A stretch of DNA of 26,831 bases from Clostridia bacterium (GCA_024404275.1 JAKSQG010000004.1:1-26831), one strand, 5' to 3'; shown: positions 738-25,657, numbered from the stretch's first letter. The notes: generated by a model from the sequence alone, not told the origin. Numbers and translations are program-made.

Positions 738-1190
738 ATGAGAGCGACCGAGGCAACGGAGTGGACCAATGTGTGCCTGATTCAGGATGGCACACGCGTG
801 CTGGTGGAAAATAAAAAGGGCCGCGGCGTGGTATTTCCCGGCGGACATGTGGAGCCGGGGGAAGCACTGACCGACGCCGTGGTTCGTGAAATACGTGAAG
901 AAACCGGGCTGACCGTGCATGATGTAAAGCTTTGCGGCATCAAGGACGCCGCGTGGGAAAACGGTACGCGCTTTGTGGTGCTTTTATACAAGGCAGGCAG
1001 CTTCGAAGGAAAAATGAAGTCTTCCGAGGAAGGGGAAGTGTTCTGGGCGGAGCTGAATGAGCTTGAACACCTGAACCTCATCTGGAACATGAAGGAAATG
1101 ACCGACATTATTCTGAATAAAAACGGTCTGGAATATTATCTGCAGTCGGACGGCAACGGCGGCTATATAGGTGAACTGAAGGAGATGTAA
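738..1190 (+). CDS. NUDIX hydrolase (MutT-like)
   Basis: Complete Nudix box GGHVEPGEALTDAVVREIREETGL (GX5EX7REUXEEXGU). ATG 738 lies 8 nt after GGAG; GTG 732 is an alternative start. Stop TAA. Confidence 0.85.
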   Translation: MRATEATEWTNVCLIQDGTRVLVENKKGRGVVFPGGHVEPGEALTDAVVREIREETGLTVHDVKLCGIKDAAWENGTRFVVLLYKAGSFEGKMKSSEEGEVFWAELNELEHLNLIWNMKEMTDIILNKNGLEYYLQSDGNGGYIGELKEM

Positions 1191-5919: not shown

Positions 5920-7431
5920 ATGCTTTCGTACATTGCCATTGATCTGAAATCATTCTACGCCTCCGCGGAATGCGCTGCCCGGGGTCTGGACCCGCTGACC
6001 ACCCATCTGGTGGTGGCGGATGAGAGCCGTACCGAAAAGACCATTTGCCTGGCGGTCTCGCCGTCACTCAAGGCACTTGGCATTGGCGGACGTGCAAGGT
6101 TGTTTGAGGTCAATCAGAAGCTGGAGGAGGTCAACCGCCTGCGCATGAAGGCGGCAGGGGGCACGCTGAACGGCGCTTCTTCCAACGCACAAGAGCTTCT
6201 GGAGCACCCTGAATATGCCGTGAAGACCATCATTGCGCCGCCGCGCATGGCGCGCTATATGCAGCTGAGCACAAAGATCTACAGCATCTATACGCGTTAC
6301 GTTGCGCCGGAAGACATTGTGGTGTATTCCATCGATGAGGTTTTTATCCACGCTGAACCGTATCTCAAAATGTATCAGACGGATGCACGCGGGCTGGCCA
6401 TGCGCATGATTCGCGATGTGCTGAAGGAAACAGGCATTACCGCCACAGCGGGTATCGGTGAAAATCTGTATCTGTGCAAGGTGGCCATGGACATTGTCGC
6501 GAAGCATTGTGAGCCGGATGCAGATGGTGTGCGCATTGCGGAATTGACGGAGCAAAGCTATCGGGAACAGCTGTGGGAGCATCGACCGTTGACCGACTTT
6601 TGGCGTGTGGGACGCGGCATTGCAAGAAAACTGCAGGCCAACGGCATGCAATGTATGGGCGATGTGGCGCTGACCAGTCTGAAAGATGAGGACCTGTTGT
6701 ATCGGCTGTTTGGCGTCAATGCCGAGCTGCTGATCGATCATGCCTGGGGTTGGGAGCCATGCCGGGTCAGCGATATCCGTGCCTATAAGCCGGAAAGTAG
6801 CAGCCTGAGCAGCGGTCAGGTGCTGTCGATGCCCTATGAGCATGATACGGCGGCGGTCATCGTGCGTGAAATGGCGGAGGAGCTGGCGTTGGCACTGCTG
6901 GAAAAACAGCAGGTGACCAACCGCGCGGAGCTGGTCATTTGCTATGATACCGAAAACCTGACGCGGTCAGATATGGAGTATACAGGCCCTGTGCAGACCG
7001 ATCCTTATGGACGGAAGGCGCCAAAACCTGCGCACGGCTTTGAAAACCTGCCGTATACGGCTTCGGCACGGCTGATCAGCGAAGCCATGCTGAACATCTT
7101 TGAACGTGTAACCGATAAGCGTCTGCTGGTGCGCCGCGTGTATGTGATCGCCTGCAATCTGAAGGGGGCACAGGAGGAGCTTAACGAAACTGCCGTCACG
7201 GAGCAGATGGACATGTTTACCGATTATACCGCACTGGAAGCGAAAAGAGCGTAGGAAAAGGCGCGGCTGGAGCGGGAGCAGAAGGCACAGAATGCGCTGC
7301 TGCAGATTCGGCATCGGTTTGGCAAAAACGCCCTGCTCAAGGGCACCAGCCTGCAGAAAGGAGCCACGGGACGCGAAAGGCATCAGCAGATTGGCGGTCA
7401 CCGTGCGGAGACGGATGACGGAAAAATATAA
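5920..7431 (+). CDS. Y-family (UmuC/DinB-like) translesion DNA polymerase with one in-frame TAG at 7252-7254
   Basis: N-terminus IAIDLKSFYASAECAARGLDP is typical of Firmicutes ImpB/MucB/SamB-type polymerases. After the TAG the same frame continues EKARLEREQKAQNALLQIRHRFGKNALLKGTSLQKGATGRERHQQIGGHRA... to TAA 7429-7431. That is the conserved C-terminal tail of this family. The extension overlaps the next gene's ATG (7415). Confidence 0.75.
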
Positions 7432-13754: not shown

Positions 13755-14687
13755 TCAGTTTGCCATAGCATCATAATCGGTCATGAAGCGGCGGCGGAAT
13801 TCCTCTCCGCAGGCAAGACCGGCAGCGCGGGCGGCGGCGAATGCCCCGCCGTACACGGGCGGTACCGTGCCCATGATCATCTGTGCCCGGGGATCGGCCG
13901 CGGCACGCAGACGTTTTTCATATTCGGGAAAATGGCGGATGACGCCGCCGTTGAGCACGAGCGGGAAGGGCGTGCCGAACGATTCGGCAGCGGCATGGAT
14001 CATCAGGCACAGCTCTTTGACGCAGCCATCCACGATCTCTTCGGCATAGGGGTCACCCATATCAAGTGCCTCAAACACCACGCCGCACAGCGAGGCAATG
14101 TAGGCACGGCCTCCGGCATACACCTGCGACAGGTGGCTGATCAATTCGCCGCCGAGGCGCTTTTCAATCAGCTCCTTCATGGGGGTATAGCCGATGCGTC
14201 CGTCGTTCATTTTGACCGCGCGGTTGAGGGCGTCACGCCCGAGAATGTAGCCGCTGGAGCAGCCGTCCACCAGCCAGCCGCAGCCGCCGATATAGCGGAC
14301 CTTGCCATCGACACGGATAGTCAGCGAACTGCCGGTGCCGCAGATGAGGGCGGCGCCGTCTTTTTCTCCCAGCATACCGTAAAGCAGGCAGGGACCGTCT
14401 CCCTCCGCCGTCAGATGGCGGCAGGTGACCATTTCTTTTATGCGTTCGCCGATGCTGCCGCCAAAATAGTCGTAGCAGGCGATGCCGGCATACAGGGCGT
14501 CAATGGGGGTATCCGCCCCAATGCCCAGGGCGCGGATGCTGTTTTCATAGCGTTTGCAGGCTTCTTCCAGACCGCAGTCCAGCGGATTGGCCCCTGCAGT
14601 CACCGAACGGCACAGAATATGCCCCGTCTCGTCAAACAGTACGGCATCCGTCTTGGTGCCGCCCACATCCAGTGCAGCCAGCAGCAT
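13755..14687 (-). CDS. BadF/BadG/BcrA/BcrD-type ATPase (N-acetylglucosamine-kinase-like ASKHA kinase)
   Basis: N-terminal LAALDVGGTKTD phosphate-1 motif, then ICGTGS and GGCGWLVDGCSSGY motifs. AAGGAG RBS 15 nt after the tyrA stop. Stop TGA. Confidence 0.75.
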   Translation of the reverse strand: MLLAALDVGGTKTDAVLFDETGHILCRSVTAGANPLDCGLEEACKRYENSIRALGIGADTPIDALYAGIACYDYFGGSIGERIKEMVTCRHLTAEGDGPCLLYGMLGEKDGAALICGTGSSLTIRVDGKVRYIGGCGWLVDGCSSGYILGRDALNRAVKMNDGRIGYTPMKELIEKRLGGELISHLSQVYAGGRAYIASLCGVVFEALDMGDPYAEEIVDGCVKELCLMIHAAAESFGTPFPLVLNGGVIRHFPEYEKRLRAAADPRAQMIMGTVPPVYGGAFAAARAAGLACGEEFRRRFMTDYDAMAN

Positions 14688-14702: not shown

Positions 14703-15557
14703 TTATTTGTTGAACAGCGCGCGGCGGGCGGTAGAAAGGCGCATCTTTTCCCGAAGACCTTCCTTGTCCTCTGCTTCCAGCATACCGCGCAGGGTATGCA
14801 TCTCATCGATGAAGGTGTCCATCTGTTCCAGCAGCGGTGCTTTGTTCATCAAGAACAGCTCGCTCCACATGGCGTCGTTGATACGGGCAATGCGGGTCAG
14901 GTCACGGAAACTGTCACCGGTATAGTCGACCAGATGGGTGCTGTCGCTGCAGGTCATCAGCGCCACGGCGATGACGTGGGTCAGCTGCGATACAAAGCCG
15001 ATCATGCGGTCATGCTCTTCGGGGCTGAGCACGCTGATGCGGGCAAAGCCCAGCAGACGCCCCAATTCCTTGCTCCATTCGATGCCTTCGAGGGTGTTTT
15101 TATCGGTGGGCACCACAATGTAGTTGGCGTCCCGGAAGATGCGGTCATCGGCGTTTTCCACGCCGTATACCTCACGACCGGCCATGGGATGGGAGGCGAT
15201 GAATTCAACGCCCGCGGGCAGCAGCTGCTGTACCTCTTCCACAATGCCGGATTTGACGCCTGTCACATCGGTCACCATGGCGCCCCAGCGGATCAGATGA
15301 CCCCACTGGCGGATCCAGTCGACAAACACATGGGGATACACGGCAAAGATGAGCACCCCGGCACGGCGGATGGCGTCCTCGGTGGGTTCGGTATAGCCGC
15401 AGTCGATGATGCCATGCTCCACGGCGTAGGTGATGGCTTCGGGGCGGGTATCGATCGCTTCCACGTGATAGCCCAGGGAGCGCAGACGCTTGGCATAGCT
15501 GCCGCCCATCAGACCCAGACCTACAATCAGAATATCGTTATCAGAGATCCATCTCAT
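14703..15557 (-). CDS. tyrA: Prephenate dehydrogenase
   Basis: ILIVGLGLMGGSYAKRL Rossmann motif plus SHPMAG and a prephenate-dehydrogenase-like C-terminal half. Overlaps the aroA stop by 17 nt. Stop TAA. Confidence 0.85.
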   Translation of the reverse strand: MRWISDNDILIVGLGLMGGSYAKRLRSLGYHVEAIDTRPEAITYAVEHGIIDCGYTEPTEDAIRRAGVLIFAVYPHVFVDWIRQWGHLIRWGAMVTDVTGVKSGIVEEVQQLLPAGVEFIASHPMAGREVYGVENADDRIFRDANYIVVPTDKNTLEGIEWSKELGRLLGFARISVLSPEEHDRMIGFVSQLTHVIAVALMTCSDSTHLVDYTGDSFRDLTRIARINDAMWSELFLMNKAPLLEQMDTFIDEMHTLRGMLEAEDKEGLREKMRLSTARRALFNK

Positions 15558-16743
15558 CGGTTGTTACCTCAATTCCCAGCGCCCTGAGACGCTCAAAATA
15601 ATCGGGCAGGCTCTTGCGTACTGCCTGCGCCCCGTAAATCGTACCGCCGATGGTGGTCAGAAGTGTACTCATGGCCATCACGATGCGGTGATCGTTGTGT
15701 CCGCTGACCGGCTCCGAAGGCGCATGGGGCGTGCCGGGGCACACGGTCAGTTCATTTTCATCCAATTCGACGGTGATGCCGCATTTGTGCAGCTCTTCGC
15801 CCATGGCACGACCGCGGTCGCTCTCCTTGATGGCCAGGCGCCTTGTACCGGTGAAGCGTGCGCCGTGATGCATCGCGGCAAACGCCATCTCGACGGGTCC
15901 CAGGTCGGGGCAGTCGCTCAGGTCGATACTGCAAAAGCCTTTCTTCAACGCCGCAAAATGCTCACGGTACACTTTGTCGCCCTGCAGGCTGTCTGCCTTG
16001 AGACCGGTCAGGGGCACCCCCAGCGCTTCAAAGAAGGCGGCGTTGGAATAATCGCCCTCCACAGTGACCTCGGCTGCGGCATAATGCTGCCCGCCGGGGA
16101 TGACAAAGGTGTTTTCATCGGGGCGGGTCAGGCGGATGCCGAAGGTTTCCAGCGCTTCCACCGTCATATCAATATAGGGGCGGCTTTCCACGGGCGGCAG
16201 CAGGCGCAGCGTGCTGTCTTCCCTGAGCAGCGGCAGTGTGAACAGAAGACCCGTGATAAACTGGCTGCTGACGGCACCGCTGACGGCGATATCACCGCCG
16301 TGAAGCTGCCCTTCCACCTCGGCAGCACCCTTTTCGGTGCGAAGCAGGATGCCCTGATCTTTGCACAGCTCCTCATAAACAGAAAGCGGACGGCTGAACA
16401 GTTTTTCACTGCCCTCCAGGCGGGCATGCCTGCCGTCAATCAGGCACAAAGGCAAAAAGAAGCGCAGCGTGCTGCCGCTTTCCCGGCATAAAAGCGTCTC
16501 CCGGGGGATAGGGCGTCCGTTGCCTGTGATGGTCACGGTGCTGCCGACCCTTTCAAGCGCTGCACCCAGCGCACGCAGACAGTCCATGGAAGCCAGAATG
16601 TCCTCGCTGTATTCCAGACCGTGTACCACACTGCGGCCCTCGCTCAGACCGGCGGCGATCAGCAGGCGGTGTGCCATTGACTTGGAAGGCGGTGCCGCCA
16701 TCGTTCCCTTCGCTGCGGAGGGGGTAAATACTGCACGCATCAT
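15541..16743 (-). CDS. aroA: 3-phosphoshikimate 1-carboxyvinyltransferase (EPSP synthase)
   Basis: PPSKSMAHRLLIAA and LRxxxSDR-type motifs (IKESDRGRAM). ATGA overlap with the aroQ stop. Stop TGA. Confidence 0.9.
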   Translation of the reverse strand: MMRAVFTPSAAKGTMAAPPSKSMAHRLLIAAGLSEGRSVVHGLEYSEDILASMDCLRALGAALERVGSTVTITGNGRPIPRETLLCRESGSTLRFFLPLCLIDGRHARLEGSEKLFSRPLSVYEELCKDQGILLRTEKGAAEVEGQLHGGDIAVSGAVSSQFITGLLFTLPLLREDSTLRLLPPVESRPYIDMTVEALETFGIRLTRPDENTFVIPGGQHYAAAEVTVEGDYSNAAFFEALGVPLTGLKADSLQGDKVYREHFAALKKGFCSIDLSDCPDLGPVEMAFAAMHHGARFTGTRRLAIKESDRGRAMGEELHKCGITVELDENELTVCPGTPHAPSEPVSGHNDHRIVMAMSTLLTTIGGTIYGAQAVRKSLPDYFERLRALGIEVTTDEMDL

Positions 16744-17171
16744 ACGCCCTTCACCAGATAGTCCATGGCTTCCAGATAGCCGTTCAGCCCGTGACCGCTG
16801 ATGGTCTTGACGCAGGCGGCACGCACATAGCTGATCTGACGAAAATCCTCACGCTTGCTCACATCGCTGATGTGCACTTCCACCGTGGGGATGCCAATGG
16901 CCTTGACAGCATCCAGAATGGCGACGGAGGTGTGGGTGTAGGCGGCGGGGTTGAACACGATGCCGTCCATTACGCCGTAGGCGGCCTGCAGCTCGTCCAC
17001 CAGGGCGCCTTCATGATTGCTCTGAAAGATCTTGACCTCCACGCCCAATTCTTCTGCATGGGTGCGGATCATGCCGCATAGTGCCTCATAAGAGTTGCCG
17101 CCATAAATGGAAGGTTCACGGATGCCCAGAAAATTGAGGTTGGGTCCGTTCAGAATAAGCAGCTTTTTCAT
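16740..17171 (-). CDS. aroQ: Type II 3-dehydroquinate dehydratase
   Basis: MKKLLILNGPNLNFLGIREPSIYG, FQSNHEG and NPAAYTHTSVA are hallmark type II DHQase motifs. Stop TGA. Confidence 0.92.
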   Translation of the reverse strand: MKKLLILNGPNLNFLGIREPSIYGGNSYEALCGMIRTHAEELGVEVKIFQSNHEGALVDELQAAYGVMDGIVFNPAAYTHTSVAILDAVKAIGIPTVEVHISDVSKREDFRQISYVRAACVKTISGHGLNGYLEAMDYLVKGV

Positions 17172-17182
17172 GGAAAATTGCC

Positions 17183-18283
17183 TTATTTCCTTTCGTCCGC
17201 AAGATAGTCGGTGCCGTAGCGGCCGGCCAGCAGGTCGGCAATGACCAGCGCGGTCATGCTGTCCGCCACCACGCGTGCGCGGTGCAATATGGCGGGGTCA
17301 TGCCGTCCGGCAATGGCGATGGGCTTGTTTTCACCGGTCAGAAAATCAACGGTCTTCTGCTCCTTATAGATAGAGGGGGTCGGCTTGACCGCCAGACGGA
17401 AGCATACGGGCATGCCGTTGGTGATGCCGCCGTTGATGCCGCCATTGCGGTTGGTCTCGGTGATGACCGTGCCGTTTTCCATACGGAAGGCGTCGTTGTA
17501 TTCGCTGCCGCGCAGACGGACGCCGTCAAAACCGATGCCAAAGTCAATGCCCTTGATGCCGGGAATGGAAAGCATCGCGTGCGCCAGCAGGCTTTCCACC
17601 GTGTCAAACCACGGTTCGCCAAGGCCCGCGGGCAACCCGGTCACGGCAGTCTCGAGAATGCCGCCCACGCTGTCGCCTTCGGCCCCCGCCGCTTCAATGA
17701 CGGCGCGCATGCTTTCGCCGGCAGCGTCGTCCAGAACGGCAAACACCTGCCCGTTCAGATGGGTGATGTCCTCATTCAGGTTTCCAAAGGCGCGGTCGCG
17801 AACGCCGCCGCATTCCTGCACGTGCGTACCGATCAGAATGCCCTTTTGCTTCAGAGCACCTGCCAGAATGGCGCAGGAGGCGACCAGTGCCGCCGTGATA
17901 CGGCCAGAAAAATGTCCGCCGCCGCGGGCATCCTGAAAGCCGTGATATTTGCACTGCGCCGTATAATCGGCATGCCCGGGGCGGGCGAGACCACTCAGAG
18001 CGGCATAATCACCGCTTCTTTGATTGCTGTTGGGAATGAGCAGACACAGCGGTGTGCCGGTGGTCTTGCCGTTCACCATGCCCGATACGATGCGGAAGGG
18101 GTCTTCCTCACGTCTTGCCGTACCCGTCTTTCCCGCGGGGCGGCGCAGCAGCAGCTGATGGGCGATCAGATCGGTATCCACCGTGATGCCGGGAGCCAGA
18201 CCATCCAATACGGCGCCAATCTATGCTCCATGGCTTTCCCCAAACAGCGTCAGCGTGATGTTTTGTCCAAAGCTGTTTTTCAT
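17183..18283 (-). CDS. aroC: Chorismate synthase with one in-frame TAG (plus-strand CTA at 18221-18223)
   Basis: The listed ORF (17183..18208) begins mid-domain at LDGLAPG. Reading on upstream gives MKNSFGQNITLTLFGESHGA-TAG-IGAVLDGLAPG..., which contains the conserved FGESHG N-terminus. ATG 18283-18281 overlaps the aroB stop as ATGA. Read this way the protein is 366 aa, normal for AroC. Stop TAA. Confidence 0.85.
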
Positions 18284-19287
18284 TGTGCCGCCTCCAGAAT
18301 GCCGCGAAGCTCTTTGGTGGTGATATCCCGGGCCTGCCAGGAACCGATTTCAGGCACGGTGATAACGGTCACCTTGCCGTTGCGGAACTTTTTATCATGC
18401 AGCATGGCGTCAAACACTTTGTCCGCATCGACATCGCAATGTGTGGGAAGCCCCAGCCGTTCCAGAACGCGGAGCAGCCTTTCTCTGACATTGCCTTCGC
18501 ACATGGGGATCATGCCCAGTGCCACGCACTCGCCGTGATACAAGCCGAGTCCCTGCGCCTCATAGCCATGACCGATGGTGTGACCGAGGTTCAGGATCTT
18601 CCGCAGTCCCTGTTCCTTTTCATCCTGCTCCACCACGTCCTTTTTGATCTGCAGGGCACGGGTGATAATGGCTTCGATGTTTTCGGCAATGTCCGCGGTC
18701 TCAAACATTTCAAACAGCACCTTGTCGCTGGTCATGCCCATTTTGACGGCCTCGGCAAGGCCGCTCGCGTACTGCCGCTTGTCCTGCGTCAGCGGCAGGT
18801 CGGGGTCTACGATGACGGCTTTCGGCTGCCAGAAAGCGCCCACGATGTTTTTGATGCCGCCGAAATTGATGGCCGTCTTGCCGCCGATGGAGGAGTCCAC
18901 CTGCGACAGCGTGGTCGTGGGAATATTATAGAAATCAATACCGCGCATATAGGCGGAGGCGGCAAAGCCCGTCAGGTCACCCGCCATGCCGCCGCCGACG
19001 GCCACACAGCAGTCGCCGCGGGTAAAGCTGTTTTCCAGCATTGCGGTCAAAAGGCGCTGCCAGCCGTCCACGCTCTTGCTTTTTTCGCCCTGCGGCAGTG
19101 TCACGATAACGGGGCTTTTGCACTGCGCGGCGACCCTGCGGGCATAGTCCTCGGGCACGCCGTCATCTGTCACCACCAGCACGCGGCGGTTCAAATTCAT
19201 CAGTTTTCCGGCCTGGTCGATCAGCCCGCGGCCGATGTGAATATCATAGCTGTTTTCACCCAGGTTCATGTGCAGCATGTCGGTCAC
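18280..19287 (-). CDS. aroB: 3-dehydroquinate synthase
   Basis: GGGMAGDLTGFAASAYMRGIDFYNIPTT and GHTIGH motifs of AroB. The start is either GTG 19287 or, more likely, ATG 19278, which lies 6 nt after GAGGTG. Stop TGA. Confidence 0.9.
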   Translation of the reverse strand: MTDMLHMNLGENSYDIHIGRGLIDQAGKLMNLNRRVLVVTDDGVPEDYARRVAAQCKSPVIVTLPQGEKSKSVDGWQRLLTAMLENSFTRGDCCVAVGGGMAGDLTGFAASAYMRGIDFYNIPTTTLSQVDSSIGGKTAINFGGIKNIVGAFWQPKAVIVDPDLPLTQDKRQYASGLAEAVKMGMTSDKVLFEMFETADIAENIEAIITRALQIKKDVVEQDEKEQGLRKILNLGHTIGHGYEAQGLGLYHGECVALGMIPMCEGNVRERLLRVLERLGLPTHCDVDADKVFDAMLHDKKFRNGKVTVITVPEIGSWQARDITTKELRGILEAAQ

Positions 19288-19377: not shown

Positions 19378-19406
19378 TTGACAGATCATACAGGCCGTGC
19401 TAAATT
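19378..19406 (+). promoter_or_regulatory. Sigma-A promoter for the T-box leader
   Basis: TTGACA (19378-19383), 17 nt spacer, TAAATT (19401-19406) preceded by an extended TGn. Confidence 0.55.
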
Positions 19407-19418
19407 GTATACACAAAC

Positions 19419-19668
19419 CGACGACGCAGAGAAAAGCCGGAGAGGTCTGATTCAGCGAGGGAAGGACAGTGCAAGCTTCCAGCAGACGGCCGGGTAATAT
19501 GGACTGCGGAGGGCAGCCATGAATAGGCTGACGGCAGACGCCCGTTACAGCGCCGCGGATATGATGGTATCCGGCTGAGGGGTTTTGTCATAAAACCCAA
19601 AGACAAGGTGGCACCGAGAACAATGATTTGTTCGCCCTTGATTACACAAAGTAATCAGGGGCGTTTTT
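19419..19668 (+). promoter_or_regulatory. T-box riboswitch leader, tryptophan specifier (UGG)
   Basis: Stem I lower helix is CGCAG (19425-19429) / CUGCG (19504-19508). The specifier loop 3' side is GUAAUA-UGG-A, with UGG at 19500-19502. An AGAGG bulge and an AGUGCAAG distal loop are present. Stem III is GGGUUUU..AAAACCC (19579-19597). The T-box sequence is CAAGGUGGCACCGAG, with a UGGC bulge at 19609-19612; C matches the G73 discriminator of bacterial tRNA-Trp. The antiterminator (19604-19608/19636-19640 and 19618-19623/19628-19633) competes with a 13-bp terminator (19633-19645/19651-19663) followed by TTTTT. Confidence 0.85.
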
Positions 19669-19685
19669 CTTTGGAGGCAAGAGCA

Positions 19686-21709: not shown

Positions 21710-22663
21710 GTGGTTCTGATCAATATGCTGATCTCCGCCATCAGTCAGGGACTTTTGTATGCTCCCATGGCGCTGGGCGTATTTGTCACCTTCAAAATTC
21801 TGAAAACGCCCGACCTGACCGTGGATGGCAGCTTTGTTGTGGGTATGACCGTCTGCGCTGCCGTGACCATTGCGGGCTACCCCGTGCTGGCACTGTTTGC
21901 AGCCCTTGCGGCGGGAGCCATCGCCGGTCTTTGTACGGCACTGCTGCAGACCAGGCTCAAGATCGAACCCATTCTGTGCGGCATTCTCGTGGCGACCGGT
22001 CTGTATACGGTCAATTATGCTGTATTGGGCGGTCAGAGCAACCTTTATCTGCAGCGTCAGGTGATGAATGCCGCAGGCTATCCCGTCAATCAGGCGGCGG
22101 ATACGGTCTACAAAAGCTTTGGTCAGCTGCTCAATCCTTTGGGCGGTCAGTGGAAAAACACCAACACGCAGGTTATGCTGCTGACGCTGGGCATCGTGCT
22201 GGTGCTGGTCGTGCTCCTTGGTATCTTCTTCTTCACCCGTCCCGGCATGGCCATTCGCGGCACCGGCGACAATGAAGAAATGGTGCGTTCCTCCTCCATC
22301 AATGCCGATCTGACGCGTACCGCCGGCATCATGCTGGCCAACGCGCTGGTGGCCTTCAGCGGCGGTCTGCTCTGTCAGCAGCAGCGCTATGCCGATCTGA
22401 ACTGCGGCAGCGGCATGCTGGTCATGGGTCTGGCTTCCGTCATCATCGGTCAGGTGCTGGGCGGCAACCGCGGCCTGATCGTGGGTCTGATTTCTGCGGC
22501 AGGCGGCTCCATCCTGTACCGCATCGTGCTGCAGCTGGCTTACAGCATCGATCTGCCGTCCTATTCCGTTAAGCTCCTGTCCACGCTCATCGTCATCGTG
22601 GCGCTGGGTGTGCCGCTGCTCAAAAAGCACGGTTTCAAGCTTCCGGGAGGGAAAAAGGCATGA
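21710..22663 (+). CDS. ABC transporter permease (COG4120 / TrpY-like)
   Basis: 317 aa polytopic protein. GTG start 8 nt after GGAGG. Stop TGA overlaps the ATPase ATG (ATGA). Confidence 0.8.
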   Translation: MVLINMLISAISQGLLYAPMALGVFVTFKILKTPDLTVDGSFVVGMTVCAAVTIAGYPVLALFAALAAGAIAGLCTALLQTRLKIEPILCGILVATGLYTVNYAVLGGQSNLYLQRQVMNAAGYPVNQAADTVYKSFGQLLNPLGGQWKNTNTQVMLLTLGIVLVLVVLLGIFFFTRPGMAIRGTGDNEEMVRSSSINADLTRTAGIMLANALVAFSGGLLCQQQRYADLNCGSGMLVMGLASVIIGQVLGGNRGLIVGLISAAGGSILYRIVLQLAYSIDLPSYSVKLLSTLIVIVALGVPLLKKHGFKLPGGKKA

Positions 22664-23445
22664 ACGACTGTGAATTGAACATTCAAAACCTGACCAAATG
22701 CTTCGAAAAAGGCACCGCCAATGAAAAGGTTGCGCTTGACCATCTGAATCTGATGGTTCCTGCCGGACAGTTTGTTACTGTGCTGGGCACCAACGGCAGC
22801 GGCAAAAGCACGCTGTTCAATGCCATTCTGGGCAAGCTGCGTCCCGATGAGGGCACCATTCTGCTGGGCGGTGAGGATATCACCCGACAGAAGGATTACA
22901 AACGTGCCCTGAACATCGGCTGTCTGTACCAGAATCCCCTGCGCGGCACGGCGCCCGATATGACCATTGAGGAAAACCTCGCCCTGGCCTATACCCGCAA
23001 ATCCTCGCGTTCCTTTTTTGCCGTCAACCGTCGGGACAGCGCTTACTTCCGTGAACTGTTGGCTACCCTGAATATGGGCCTGTAGGACCGTATGAAGACC
23101 CGCATGGGACTGCTCTCCGGCGGACAGCGACAGGCAGCGTCGCTCCTGATGGCGACCATCGCCAAACCGCGACTGCTGCTGCTCGATGAGCACACCGCTG
23201 CCCTTGACCCCGGCGCGGCGGACAAGGTGATGGAACTGACCAAACGCATCACAGCGGAGCAGGGCATCACCACCCTGATGGTCACGCATGATATGGATTA
23301 CGCGCTCAGCATTGGTACCCGTACCATTATGCTGTCCGCGGGAAAAGTGGTCATGGATATCAGCGGGGAAGAGCGTGAGCAGATGACCTCCGGTCATCTG
23401 GCAGAGCTGTTCTACACTGCCCGTCAGAAAAAGCTCGGACAATAA
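22660..23445 (+). CDS. ABC transporter ATP-binding protein (COG1101 / TrpZ-like) with one in-frame TAG at 23083-23085
   Basis: Walker A GTNGSGKST and the Q-loop lie before the TAG. The LSGGQRQA signature, Walker B LLLLDEHTAALD and H-loop MVTHDM follow in the same frame (...LATLNMGL-TAG-DRMKTRMGLLSGGQRQA...). Read through, the protein is 261 aa, normal for this family. Stop TAA. Confidence 0.85.
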
Positions 23446-24598: not shown

Positions 24599-25657
24599 TT
24601 ATTTTGCCGCGCTGTCAAGCGGCAGACAGACCGAAAATGTGCTGCCTTTACCGGGAACACTCTCGGCATGGATGGTGCCGCCCGAAAGCTTGATGATGCG
24701 CTGCACCATGGTCAGCCCCAGACCGTTGCCTTCCCCATGATGCGCTTTGTCACCCTGATAGAATTTTTCAAAAATATGCGCCAGTGTCTCCTCTGTCATG
24801 CCGATGCCCGTGTCGCCAAAGCGGATGATCGCCTGCCGCCCTTCGACTTTCAGGGAGACCGAGATGGTACCGCCCTCTGGCGTGAACTTGATGGCGTTGT
24901 TCAAAAGATTGATCCACGCCTGCTCCAGCATCTGCTTGTTGCCGCGGCAGCGAAGCTCGACAAGGTCGATGTCGAGCATCAGCTCTTTGGCCTCCCATTG
25001 CTTTTCAAGCAGCAGTATGCAGGAGCGCAGCTGTTCATCGAGGGAGAACTCGGTCTTTTCTGTCACAATCTATTGCGCTTCCAGCTTCGAAAGCAAAAGG
25101 ATGTTGGTGGCAAGGCTTGCCAGCCGCTCGGATTCATCGGCAATAATGGTAGCGTATTCCCGCCGCTCCGCATCGGTCAGGTCCTCCCTCTGCAGCTGGC
25201 GGGCAAAACCGCGGATGGAAACGATGGGCGTTTTGAACTCGTGGGAAAAACTGTTGATAAAGTCGTTGCGGAACATTTCGATGCCGCTCAGCTCCTGCGT
25301 CATGCGGTTGAAGGAGCGGATCAGATCGTTCATTTCATCCGAGTCTTCTCCTTCATTTTCGGGCAGCTTGACCGAAAAATCTCCCTTTGCAACGCGCTCG
25401 GTGGCGTCCTTGATCTGCATGATGGGACTCAGAAAGTATTTGCCGATCCACGCGGTGATGACGGTGGCGATGATGCCGGAAATCAGCACCAGCCGCACAG
25501 GGGACAAGACCTGTGTCAAAAGCATTGCCGCGTAGGGCGTGCCGGGGAACAACTGCGCCGAAAAATACAGCGCGCTGGTCAGAAAGTTGGAGAGCAGCAT
25601 GATAAAGAACACATACAGCACCAGGCGCATGCGCAGGCTGCCCATACGGTTTCTCAT
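24599..25657 (-). CDS. Sensor histidine kinase with one in-frame TAG (plus-strand CTA at 25070-25072)
   Basis: The two listed ORFs (25070..25657 and 24599..25066) share one frame and are separated only by TAG plus one codon. The junction reads ...LLLSKLEAQ-TAG-IVTEKTEFSLDEQLR... The upstream half has two TM segments, HAMP and the H-box SHEFKTP. The downstream half has the N (LLNNAIKF), G1 (FGDTGIG) and G2 (GNGLGL) boxes. There is no RBS or ATG for the downstream half. Stop TAA. Confidence 0.85.

What the first reader, a model, noticed from the sequence alone, without database searches (positions are those of the whole stretch)
18208..18283. Chorismate synthase N-terminus (FGESHG motif) is separated from the rest of the enzyme by a single TAG
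The minus strand reads ATG AAA AAC AGC TTT GGA CAA AAC ATC ACG CTG ACG CTG TTT GGG GAA AGC CAT GGA GCA TAG ATT GGC GCC GTA TTG GAT GGT. This translates as MKNSFGQNITLTLFGESHGA*IGAVLDG. The FGESHG segment is a conserved N-terminal motif of AroC, and the ATG overlaps the aroB TGA as ATGA. The enzyme sits mid-operon between intact aroB and aroQ/aroA/tyrA, so a dead aroC would make the whole operon pointless. This is the strongest single-gene argument for UAG read-through.
Basis: seen in the sequence. Interest (0 to 1): 0.7.

Follow-up and report, generated by a model that had tools for sequence, protein, structure and literature searches.

The report
Bacterium reads UAG stop as glutamate
The stop codon inside this chorismate synthase gene is real and is kept in four independent assemblies of an uncultured Clostridia lineage; it is one of at least eleven in-frame UAGs that mostly sit where close relatives have glutamate, so this lineage most likely translates UAG as glutamate, a genetic-code change not yet described for bacteria.

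Summary
aroC (17183-18283, minus strand) has one in-frame TAG at 18221-18223 (codon 21), just after FGESHG. It matches chorismate synthase models as one unbroken stretch.

The TAG is not an error or gene decay. It is present in four independent assemblies (88-96% DNA identity). dN/dS is 0.02-0.05 on both sides of it.

It is part of a lineage-wide pattern:
- There are 11 in-frame TAG sites in real genes and no in-frame TAA or TGA. Three more are in this window: Y-family polymerase 7252, ABC ATPase 23083, histidine kinase 25070.
- No gene truly ends in TAG.
- Outgroups have intact genes and do use TAG stops.

At 6 of the 8 sites that vary, the nearest relative has a Glu codon (GAG or GAA). Two of these are functionally conserved glutamates: one invariant in 120/120 ABC homologues, the other the Glu of the Nudix box REUXEE. 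CAG, AAG, TAY and TGG never partner TAG between window and sister.

Best explanation: UAG has been reassigned from stop to glutamate in this clade. I infer a tRNA with anticodon CUA and loss of RF1, but could reach neither gene. The papers searched report no UAG reassignment in Bacteria.

The parts
17183..18283 (-). aroC (chorismate synthase), 366 codons including one in-frame TAG; ends in TAA
   Evidence: single collinear match to PF01264, TIGR00033 and NF003793 across the TAG. dN/dS is 0.047 against the sister species.
18221..18223 (-). In-frame TAG, codon 21 of aroC (the finding)
   Evidence: The same TAG is in L001 (ENA ERZ27247129), L084 (Logan SRR27361835) and L003 (GCA_045599485.1), with synonymous changes around it.
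18280..19278 (-). aroB (3-dehydroquinate synthase); its TGA overlaps the aroC ATG as ATGA (18280-18283)
   Evidence: PF01761 DHQ_synthase. dN/dS 0.06-0.08.
14703..17171 (-). Rest of the operon: aroQ (16740-17171), aroA (15541-16743), tyrA/prephenate dehydrogenase (14703-15557). All are intact.
   Evidence: PF01220, PF00275, PF02153.
5920..7431 (+). Y-family DNA polymerase gene with in-frame TAG at 7252-7254, 59 codons before its TAA
   Evidence: The sister species has CGG at this codon and a 500-aa product. dN/dS downstream of the TAG is 0.13.
22660..23445 (+). ABC transporter ATPase with in-frame TAG at 23083-23085 (GL-x-DR, just before LSGGQ)
   Evidence: The column is Glu in 120/120 homologues. 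The sister species has GAG. L084 shares the TAG.
24599..25657 (-). Sensor histidine kinase with in-frame TAG at 25070-25072 (SKLEAQ-x-IVTEK)
   Evidence: The sister species has GAG. In 149 homologues the column is E 48 and Q 25. L084 shares the TAG.
888..890 (+). GAA (Glu of the Nudix box REUXEE) in the window's NUDIX gene; the sister species has TAG at this codon
26008..26010 (-). GAA in the response-regulator gene; strain L084 has TAG at this codon
12882..12884 (-). GAG in the Na+/H+ antiporter-family gene; strain L001 has TAG at this codon and the sister species has CAG
14013..14015 (-). GAG in the BadF/BcrA-type ATPase gene; the sister species has TAG at this codon
19869..19871 (+). GCG (Ala) in ldh; the sister species has TAG at this codon

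Best explanation
The window is a whole contig of the MAG GCA_024500545.1, an uncultured Clostridia (Oscillospirales-like) bacterium. In its small clade UAG is no longer a stop codon. It is translated as an amino acid, most likely glutamate.

Shown here:
- The aroC TAG and at least ten other TAGs lie inside intact genes that are under purifying selection.
- TAG interchanges with GAG or GAA between close relatives.
- Two TAGs occupy functionally conserved glutamates.
- No gene in about 100 kb of lineage DNA truly ends in TAG.
- Outgroups have intact genes and use TAG as a stop.
- There is no local recoding structure downstream of the TAGs.

Inferred, not shown:
- Decoding is done by a tRNA with anticodon CUA. 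One route is a one-base change, C36 to A36, in a duplicated tRNA-Glu(CUC), charged by GluRS. The non-discriminating GluRS typical of Firmicutes already tolerates C or G at position 36.
- RF1 has been lost or disabled, leaving RF2 to terminate at UAA and UGA.
- TAG makes up only about 0.8% of Glu codons and turns over quickly (1 of 7 sites is conserved between the two species). This suggests a recent reassignment, inefficient decoding, or both.
For: 1. The TAG is real and heritable. aroC codon 21 is TAG in the window, L001, L084 and L003, which are four assemblies from different samples and pipelines at 88-96% DNA identity.
2. Selection acts on both sides. aroC omega is 0.023 upstream and 0.049 downstream of the TAG at dS 0.43. 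ABC is 0.03, the histidine kinase 0.08 and the polymerase C-terminus 0.13.
3. Single domains and homologues span the TAGs: aroC, ABC, histidine kinase and polymerase, DegV against PDB 3fdj as one stretch 3-273, and NUDIX.
4. There are 11 distinct in-frame TAG sites and no in-frame TAA or TGA. Under random nonsense mutation, P(8/8 TAG) is 0.005-0.015; this was computed when 8 sites were known.
5. Amino acid identity. At 6 of 8 variable sites the nearest relative has GAG or GAA. Over 7118 codons aligned between window and sister, TAG pairs with GAG 3 times, GAA once, and CGG, GCG and TAG once each. It never pairs with CAG (193 sites) or AAG (229 sites). P(4/4 GAG by chance) is 2e-4 to 2e-3. The ABC column is Glu in 120/120 homologues. 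The NUDIX TAG aligns with the Glu of REUXEE in 4/4 PDB alignments. Glu is the most common residue in the histidine kinase column.
6. Termination. The window's 27 complete genes end in TGA (16) or TAA (11) and never TAG. Every 'TAG stop' called in relatives' contigs continues into the rest of the same protein.
7. Outgroups. About 94,000 aligned codons of aro genes from up to 79 related genomes have no internal stops. TAG accounts for 8.6% of their stops. The nearest outgroups L088 and L089 have TAG stops and no split genes.
8. No downstream RNA structure is shared or unusual.
Against: - No tRNA(CUA) gene and no information on prfA (RF1) could be obtained. About 100 kb of lineage DNA holds no tRNA at all, and the rest of the genomes could not be reached.
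- Two of eight variable sites pair with non-Glu codons (CGG and GCG). At the antiporter site the more distant sister has CAG.
- aroC's own column is variable, so it does not discriminate.
- The absence of TAG terminators is only moderately significant, because outgroups use TAG rarely: about 4 expected in about 46 gene families, P about 0.01-0.03.
- Only 1 of 7 TAG sites is conserved between the two species, against about half of GAG and GAA sites. TAG may therefore be mildly deleterious, which also fits partial suppression.
- A 2026 screen of 2.7 million assemblies did not highlight this clade.
- There is no protein-level evidence.
Confidence: 0.7

Rival explanations
1. Partial natural amber suppression. 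The lineage carries a suppressor tRNA(CUA), chromosomal or on a prophage, but keeps RF1. UAG is then ambiguous (stop and Glu), in-frame TAGs are tolerated leaky nonsense codons, and there is no full code change.
For: TAG sites turn over fast: 1 of 7 is conserved between species, against about 50% for GAG and GAA. TAG is rare, about 0.05% of codons. The lack of TAG terminators is only weakly significant. No T follows any sense TAG, which could reflect avoidance of strong termination contexts.
Against: The aroC TAG has been kept across dS 0.43, in the catalytic N-terminus of an operon gene under strong constraint. About one gene in six carries a TAG, including at catalytic or invariant glutamates, which would be costly if termination competed efficiently. 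None of about 46 gene families ends in TAG.
Confidence: 0.17
2. UAG is a sense codon but encodes something other than Glu: Gln (as in TAG-recoded phages and supE strains), pyrrolysine, or another residue.
For: TAG to Gln is the common reassignment in gut phages. In Firmicutes, tRNA-Gln is first charged with Glu. Gln is the second most common residue in the kinase column (25/149). The sister species has CAG at the antiporter site.
Against: Between window and sister, none of 193 CAG sites pairs with TAG. That change would be a synonymous C-to-T transition if TAG meant Gln, so it should be the commonest partner. None of 229 AAG sites pairs with TAG, which argues against a Lys-like Pyl. One TAG sits at the Nudix-box Glu, where, from my own recollection of the MutT mutagenesis literature, Glu to Gln abolishes activity. 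Another sits at an ABC position that is Glu in 120/120 homologues.
Confidence: 0.08
3. The TAGs are ordinary nonsense mutations (pseudogenes in a decaying genome, population polymorphisms) or sequencing or assembly errors such as G-to-T artefacts.
For: Each TAG other than those in aroC, ABC and the kinase is seen in only one genome. GAG to TAG is the G-to-T change typical of oxidative damage artefacts.
Against: Four independent assemblies share the aroC TAG and two share the ABC and kinase TAGs. Omega is 0.02-0.13 on both sides of the TAGs. All 11 interruptions are TAG and none is TAA or TGA, although GAA is commoner than GAG. Outgroup orthologues have no internal stops in about 94,000 codons.
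Confidence: 0.03
4. Local programmed recoding, or a split enzyme. A cis RNA element might drive read-through at aroC only, or AroC might be made from the internal TTG (Leu26) without the N-terminus.
For: Gene callers do find a TTG start five codons after the TAG (P0001, 341 aa).
Against: The 120 nt after the TAG fold no better than shuffled sequence (z = +1.0), and the four window sites share no structure. TAGs occur in many unrelated genes. The 20 upstream codons are under purifying selection (7 synonymous to 1 non-synonymous change). They contain the GESHG motif present in 119/119 homologues.
Confidence: 0.02

Closest known systems
Bacterial UGA reassignments (translation tables 4 and 25: UGA to Trp in Mycoplasmatales and others, UGA to Gly in Gracilibacteria/Absconditabacteria)
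   Same: A stop codon becomes a sense codon genome-wide in a bacterial clade. In-frame stops sit at conserved positions of housekeeping genes. Standard gene callers split the genes.
   Different: The codon is different (UAG, not UGA), so the release factor expected to be lost is RF1 rather than RF2. The amino acid is different (Glu). Those codes occur in AT-rich or reduced genomes; this one is a 57% GC, free-living-type Clostridia. According, every stop-codon change described in Bacteria involves UGA.
Archaeal 'Pyl code' (all TAG read as pyrrolysine; Kivenson et al.)
   Same: The same codon (UAG) is reassigned genome-wide in a prokaryote. TAG is rare and the change has little effect on coding density, so it is easy to miss.
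   Different: That code is in Archaea, encodes pyrrolysine, and is tied to the pyl genes and methylamine metabolism. Here TAG aligns with Glu, including a Nudix-box Glu that is catalytic in MutT-type enzymes, and never with Lys codons.
TAG-recoded bacteriophages (code 15, TAG to Gln; crAss-like, Lak and jumbo phages with suppressor tRNA arrays)
   Same: UAG is read as sense by a tRNA(CUA) in gut and rumen ecosystems. Such tRNA(CUA) genes were found in AT-rich tRNA arrays (L093-L099).
   Different: Those are phage genomes and the amino acid is usually Gln. Here the TAGs are in chromosomal housekeeping genes of the bacterium (aro operon, ldh, ABC transporter, two-component system) and pair with Glu codons.
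Eukaryotic UAR to Glu codes (peritrich ciliates, table 30; Blastocrithidia, table 31)
   Same: The outcome is the same: UAG is read as glutamate, by tRNA-Glu with a mutated anticodon.
   Different: Those are eukaryotic nuclear codes in which UAA is reassigned as well, with eRF1 changes. Here UAA remains a stop (11 of 27 genes end in TAA).
Laboratory amber suppressors and RF1-deleted recoded E. coli (supE, C321.deltaA)
   Same: They are mechanistic models: a tRNA(CUA) plus reduced or absent RF1 lets UAG be read as sense, and RF2 covers UAA and UGA.
   Different: Those are engineered or laboratory-selected strains. This is a natural lineage in which TAG has spread into roughly one gene in six.

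Membership tests
Chorismate synthase (AroC; PF01264, TIGR00033, NF003793) | Full-length collinear match to the family model, including the N-terminal GESHG motif | tested here: met
   one stretch across the TAG, above the curated cut-offs; 1e-70 to yeast AroC (1r52); 119/119 homologues share the N-terminus.
Genome-wide stop-codon reassignment (alternative genetic code) | The codon occurs in frame inside conserved domains of many unrelated, otherwise intact genes | tested here: met
   11 sites in aroC, ABC ATPase, histidine kinase, response regulator, NUDIX, DegV, ldh, BadF-type ATPase, antiporter, GNAT and Y-family polymerase. Omega is 0.02-0.13.
Genome-wide stop-codon reassignment (alternative genetic code) | The codon aligns consistently with one amino acid in orthologues and homologues | tested here: met
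   The nearest relative has a Glu codon at 6 of 8 variable sites. The column is Glu in 120/120 ABC homologues, Glu of the Nudix box in 4/4 PDB alignments, and Glu is the modal residue in the kinase column.
Genome-wide stop-codon reassignment (alternative genetic code) | The codon is no longer used to terminate genes | tested here: inconclusive
   There is no true TAG stop among the window's 27 genes or about 46 gene families of the lineage. Outgroups use TAG for only about 9% of stops, so P is only about 0.01-0.03.
Genome-wide stop-codon reassignment (alternative genetic code) | Phylogenetic coherence: shared by a clade and absent from outgroups | tested here: met
   In-frame TAGs are in all four lineage genomes. 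There are none in about 94,000 outgroup codons. L088 and L089 have TAG stops and no split genes.
Genome-wide stop-codon reassignment (alternative genetic code) | A cognate tRNA with the complementary anticodon (CUA) | not testable with these tools
   There are no tRNA genes in the window or in L001-L003 and L083-L087. The rest of the genomes could not be reached. The JGI scan returned only unrelated AT-rich arrays.
Genome-wide stop-codon reassignment (alternative genetic code) | Loss or alteration of the release factor that reads the codon (RF1, prfA) | not testable with these tools
   I had no access to the whole genomes.
Pyrrolysine decoding of UAG | UAG at Pyl sites of methylamine methyltransferases, or aligned with Lys-like positions; pylTSBCD genes present | tested here: not met
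   The TAGs are in unrelated housekeeping genes and pair with Glu codons. None of 229 AAG sites pairs with TAG. The pyl genes could not be searched.
Phage-type code 15 (TAG to Gln) | TAG aligns with Gln and interchanges with CAG; phage genome context | tested here: not met
   None of 193 CAG sites pairs with TAG between window and sister. The context is a chromosomal aro operon and other cellular genes.
Local recoding element (SECIS- or PYLIS-like) | A stable, conserved RNA structure just downstream of the recoded codon | tested here: not met
   z-scores are +1.0, -1.7, -1.4 and -0.1 and no structure is shared; no Rfam family.
Pseudogene | Relaxed selection, mixed types of disabling mutations, not conserved in relatives | tested here: not met

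The most novel reading that the evidence does not exclude
This Oscillospirales-like clade (GCA_024500545.1, GCA_045599485.1 and strains in ERZ27247129 and SRR27361835) uses a natural bacterial genetic code in which UAG encodes glutamate, RF1 has been lost, and only UAA and UGA terminate. It would be the first UAG sense reassignment in Bacteria and the first stop-to-Glu code in any prokaryote. It is young enough that TAG gain and loss can still be seen between strains 94-96% identical in DNA.
Probability: 0.55. Interest if true: 0.92.

Novelty: new variant of a known kind. Interest (0 to 1): 0.86.

Why it matters
- According to the papers searched, which include screens of 250,000 and 2.7 million genomes, every stop-codon reassignment known in Bacteria involves UGA. 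UAG was thought to be touched only by pyrrolysine and by phages.
- A free-living-type, GC-rich bacterium that reads UAG as Glu would add a new bacterial code. It would imply natural loss or bypass of RF1, and it offers a very young case: TAG and GAG still interchange between strains. That makes it possible to test codon-capture against ambiguous-intermediate models.
- It could supply a natural Glu-inserting tRNA(CUA) and synthetase pair, and it is a natural counterpart of RF1-deleted recoded E. coli.
- Standard annotation truncates or marks as pseudogenes about one gene in six in these MAGs. Examples are the truncated database proteins P0001 and P0367. This distorts metabolic reconstructions such as aromatic amino-acid prototrophy.
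- It bears on phage-host biology, because a host that reads TAG as sense changes which phages can replicate in it.

Tried and rejected
- Finding the decoding tRNA. ARAGORN on the window and on all lineage loci found none. Rfam at gathering thresholds on 77 kb found nothing.
- A JGI metagenome scan for a tRNA-Glu-like gene with anticodon CUA gave 7 hits. All are AT-rich (27-38% GC) tRNA arrays that look like phage and are unrelated to this 57% GC lineage, so I rejected them as evidence.
- The single GTDB scan went on aroC relatives, so I could not search the genomes for prfA or tRNA.
- Walking out from the window. The window is a complete contig of GCA_024500545.1 and that record's DNA was not retrievable. 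I extended through the sister species and two other assemblies instead.
- Using the length of the open frame after a TAG as a control failed. In outgroups, adjacent genes in the same frame (for example spoIIIAF/AG/AH in L014 and L017, and phage genes in L032) and GC-rich shadow frames also give long extensions. I replaced it with homology continuity and internal-stop counts in orthologues.
- PDB and NCBIfam searches for the GNAT protein gave nothing useful, so its TAG column is uncharacterised.
- The DegV and aroC columns are variable and do not identify the amino acid.
- TAGs in the stop-to-stop frames upstream of ldh (19404-19685) and azlC lie before the likely start codons. I did not count them.
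- Absence of TAG stops in the window alone is weak (P about 0.09), because relatives rarely use TAG.

Full report
**Observation.** It gives ATG...GGA GCA TAG ATT GGC..., which translates as MKNSFGQNITLTLFGESHGA*IGAVLDG. The TAG is at 18223..18221 (codon 21) and the frame stays open to a TAA at 17185..17183, 366 codons in all. The ATG overlaps the TGA of the upstream gene as ATGA.

With the TAG masked, the product matches Pfam Chorismate_synt as one stretch (residues 10-352, profile 2-326 of 327, E 1e-116). It passes the NCBIfam equivalog cut-offs for chorismate synthase and aligns end to end with solved AroC structures. All 119 full-length homologues retrieved start MKN..FGESHG. The column under the TAG is variable: A 41, Y 28, E 23, M 12. 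The neighbours are aroB upstream and aroQ, aroA and tyrA downstream.

**Not an error and not decay.** The window is a complete 26.8-kb contig of the NCBI MAG GCA_024500545.1, 'Clostridia bacterium'. I recovered three other assemblies of the same lineage:
- ENA ERZ27247129 (L001, L086), 96% DNA identity.
- Logan SRR27361835 (L084, L087), 94%.
- GCA_045599485.1 (L002, L003, L083, L085), the sister species, 88-91%.

All four have TAG at aroC codon 21, with different synonymous codons around it. One example is GGA GCG TAG ATC GGT in the sister.

Between window and sister, aroC has dS 0.43 and dN/dS 0.047. The ratio is 0.023 for the 20 codons before the TAG and 0.049 after it. That is indistinguishable from the intact neighbour aroB (0.06-0.08). 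The N-terminal 20 residues, which carry the invariant GESHG motif, are therefore translated and matter. That only makes sense if the ribosome continues through the TAG. The 120 nt downstream fold no better than shuffled sequence (z = +1.0), so a local recoding element is unlikely.

**A lineage-wide pattern.** I re-read the window with only TAA and TGA as stops. Three more genes have one in-frame TAG each:
- A Y-family polymerase, TAG at 7252.
- An ABC ATPase, TAG at 23083.
- A histidine kinase, TAG at 25072..25070.

Each matches its Pfam domains on both sides of the TAG. Relatives' contigs add TAGs in a response regulator, an antiporter-family gene, a BadF-type ATPase, ldh, NUDIX, a GNAT and DegV. 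The DegV product matches PDB 3fdj as one stretch 3-273 across its TAG.

That makes 11 distinct sites, about one gene in six, and not one in-frame TAA or TGA. dN/dS is 0.03-0.13 on both sides of the TAGs in the ABC, kinase and polymerase genes.

All 27 complete genes of the window end in TGA (16) or TAA (11). Every 'TAG stop' that gene callers placed in relatives' contigs runs on into the rest of the same protein.

Outgroups look standard:
- Up to 79 related Oscillospirales genomes have no internal stops in about 94,000 aligned aro-gene codons. The only stops inside the alignments are natural TAA or TGA termini.
- TAG makes up 8.6% of their stops.
- The nearest outgroups I could fetch have TAG stops and no split genes. 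These are L088 (ABC 79% identical) and L089 (aldolase 92% identical).

Because TAG stops are rare even in outgroups, their absence in the lineage is only moderately significant (P about 0.01-0.03).

**Which amino acid.** Eight sites differ among the four genomes. At six of them the nearest relative has a glutamate codon:

| Gene | Codon in nearest relative |
|---|---|
| ABC ATPase | GAG |
| Histidine kinase | GAG |
| BadF-type ATPase | GAG |
| Antiporter | GAG |
| Response regulator | GAA |
| NUDIX | GAA or GAG |
| Y-family polymerase | CGG |
| ldh | GCG |

Over 7118 codons aligned between window and sister, TAG pairs with GAG 3 times, GAA once, and CGG, GCG and TAG once each. It never pairs with CAG (193 sites) or AAG (229 sites). 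If TAG meant Gln, the synonymous C/T transition with CAG should be the commonest partner. If it meant pyrrolysine, Lys codons would be expected.

Given the window's codon usage, four of four single-step partners being GAG has P = 2e-4 to 2e-3.

Two sites are functionally telling. The ABC position (GL-x-DR, before LSGGQ) is Glu in 120 of 120 homologues. The NUDIX TAG aligns with the Glu of the Nudix box REUXEE in all four PDB alignments shown. From my recollection of the MutT literature, Glu to Gln at that residue destroys activity. Glu is also the most common residue in the kinase column (48 of 149, with Gln 25) and is found in 23 of 119 aroC homologues. Glutamate is therefore the best-supported reading.

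**Mechanism (inferred).** Global decoding by a tRNA with anticodon CUA is the simplest explanation. A C36-to-A36 change in a duplicated tRNA-Glu(CUC) mirrors the GAG-to-UAG codon change. The non-discriminating GluRS typical of Firmicutes already accepts C or G at position 36 (established knowledge, not tested here). Loss or weakening of RF1 would be expected, with RF2 serving UAA and UGA.

I could not verify either component. No tRNA gene lies in about 100 kb of lineage DNA. The JGI scan for a tRNA-Glu-like CUA gene returned only AT-rich tRNA arrays that look like phage.

TAG is rare, at 4 against 472 GAR codons in the window. It also turns over fast: 1 of 7 sites is conserved between the species, against about half of GAG and GAA sites. 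This fits a recent capture with inefficient decoding, and it keeps partial suppression with RF1 retained alive as the main rival.

**Comparison with what is known.** The papers searched state that all known stop reassignments in Bacteria involve UGA (Shulgina and Eddy 2021; 2026 papers). They describe genome-wide UAG reassignment only for the archaeal Pyl code and for phages. A 2026 k-mer screen of 2.7 million assemblies lists no bacterial TAG change, and it treats TAA/TAG-to-Glu calls in archaeal assemblies as contamination. UAR to Glu is known in peritrich ciliates and Blastocrithidia.

The present case behaves like a table-4-type stop reassignment, but with a different codon, release factor and amino acid. 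I therefore rate it a new variant of a known kind.

**Verdict.** The broader phenomenon is probable UAG = Glu decoding in a small Clostridia clade. My confidence breaks down as follows:
- UAG is translated in this lineage: about 0.9.
- The residue is Glu: about 0.75.
- The full package of UAG = Glu with complete reassignment: about 0.55 to 0.7.

The decisive missing pieces are the tRNA(CUA), the status of prfA, and peptide evidence.

Noticed in passing
window 7252-7254 (+), 23083-23085 (+), 25070-25072 (-): Three further in-frame TAGs lie in a Y-family polymerase, an ABC ATPase and a histidine kinase. Each gene is otherwise intact and under purifying selection.
   Followed up: yes
Database proteins P0001, P0364, P0365 (aroC, 341-342 aa) and P0367 (kinase, 195 aa): Public protein collections hold truncated versions of these genes, because gene callers stop or restart at the TAG. 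About one gene in six of these MAGs is probably mis-annotated or marked as a pseudogene.
   Followed up: partly
All 11 sense-TAG sites (contexts): The base after the TAG is G six times, A four times, C once and never T. UAGU is the strongest RF1 context in E. coli (from my own knowledge). The sample is too small to separate this from normal first-position purine richness.
   Followed up: no
window versus sister species, 7118 aligned codons: TAG sites turn over much faster than other Glu codons. Only 1 of 7 is conserved, against 136/277 for GAG and 168/302 for GAA. This suggests TAG is mildly disfavoured or was captured very recently.
   Followed up: partly
L004-L082, L088, L089 (outgroup Oscillospirales loci): Related genomes already use TAG for only about 9% of stops. 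A low baseline like this would ease loss of TAG as a terminator.
   Followed up: partly
L014 3179-3646 and L017 2390-3379 (minus strand): In these outgroups spoIIIAF, spoIIIAG and spoIIIAH follow each other in the same frame, separated only by TAG. This mimics in-frame TAGs and is a false-positive trap for recoding screens.
   Followed up: yes
L093-L099 (JGI and ENA metagenome contigs, 27-38% GC): These are AT-rich tRNA arrays carrying tRNA(CUA) suppressors, and they look like TAG-recoded phages. L094 has two different tRNA(CUA) genes. L098 has a tRNA-like gene with a four-base anticodon (taaa).
   Followed up: no
window 19404-19685 (+), upstream of ldh: The frame stays open for about 94 codons ahead of the ldh ATG and contains a TAG that is also present in L001 and L084. 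It lies in the divergent aroB-ldh intergenic region and shows no sign of coding. I did not count it as a sense TAG.
   Followed up: partly
Preprint 10.64898/2026.04.02.715157: A screen of 2.7 million assemblies attributes TAA/TAG-to-Glu inferences in archaeal assemblies to contamination. Its full candidate table could be checked for this clade.
   Followed up: no
L090 about 2160-2200: A run of N masks part of ruvX in this outgroup contig, which explains the shorter gene call (123 aa against 148 aa).
   Followed up: yes
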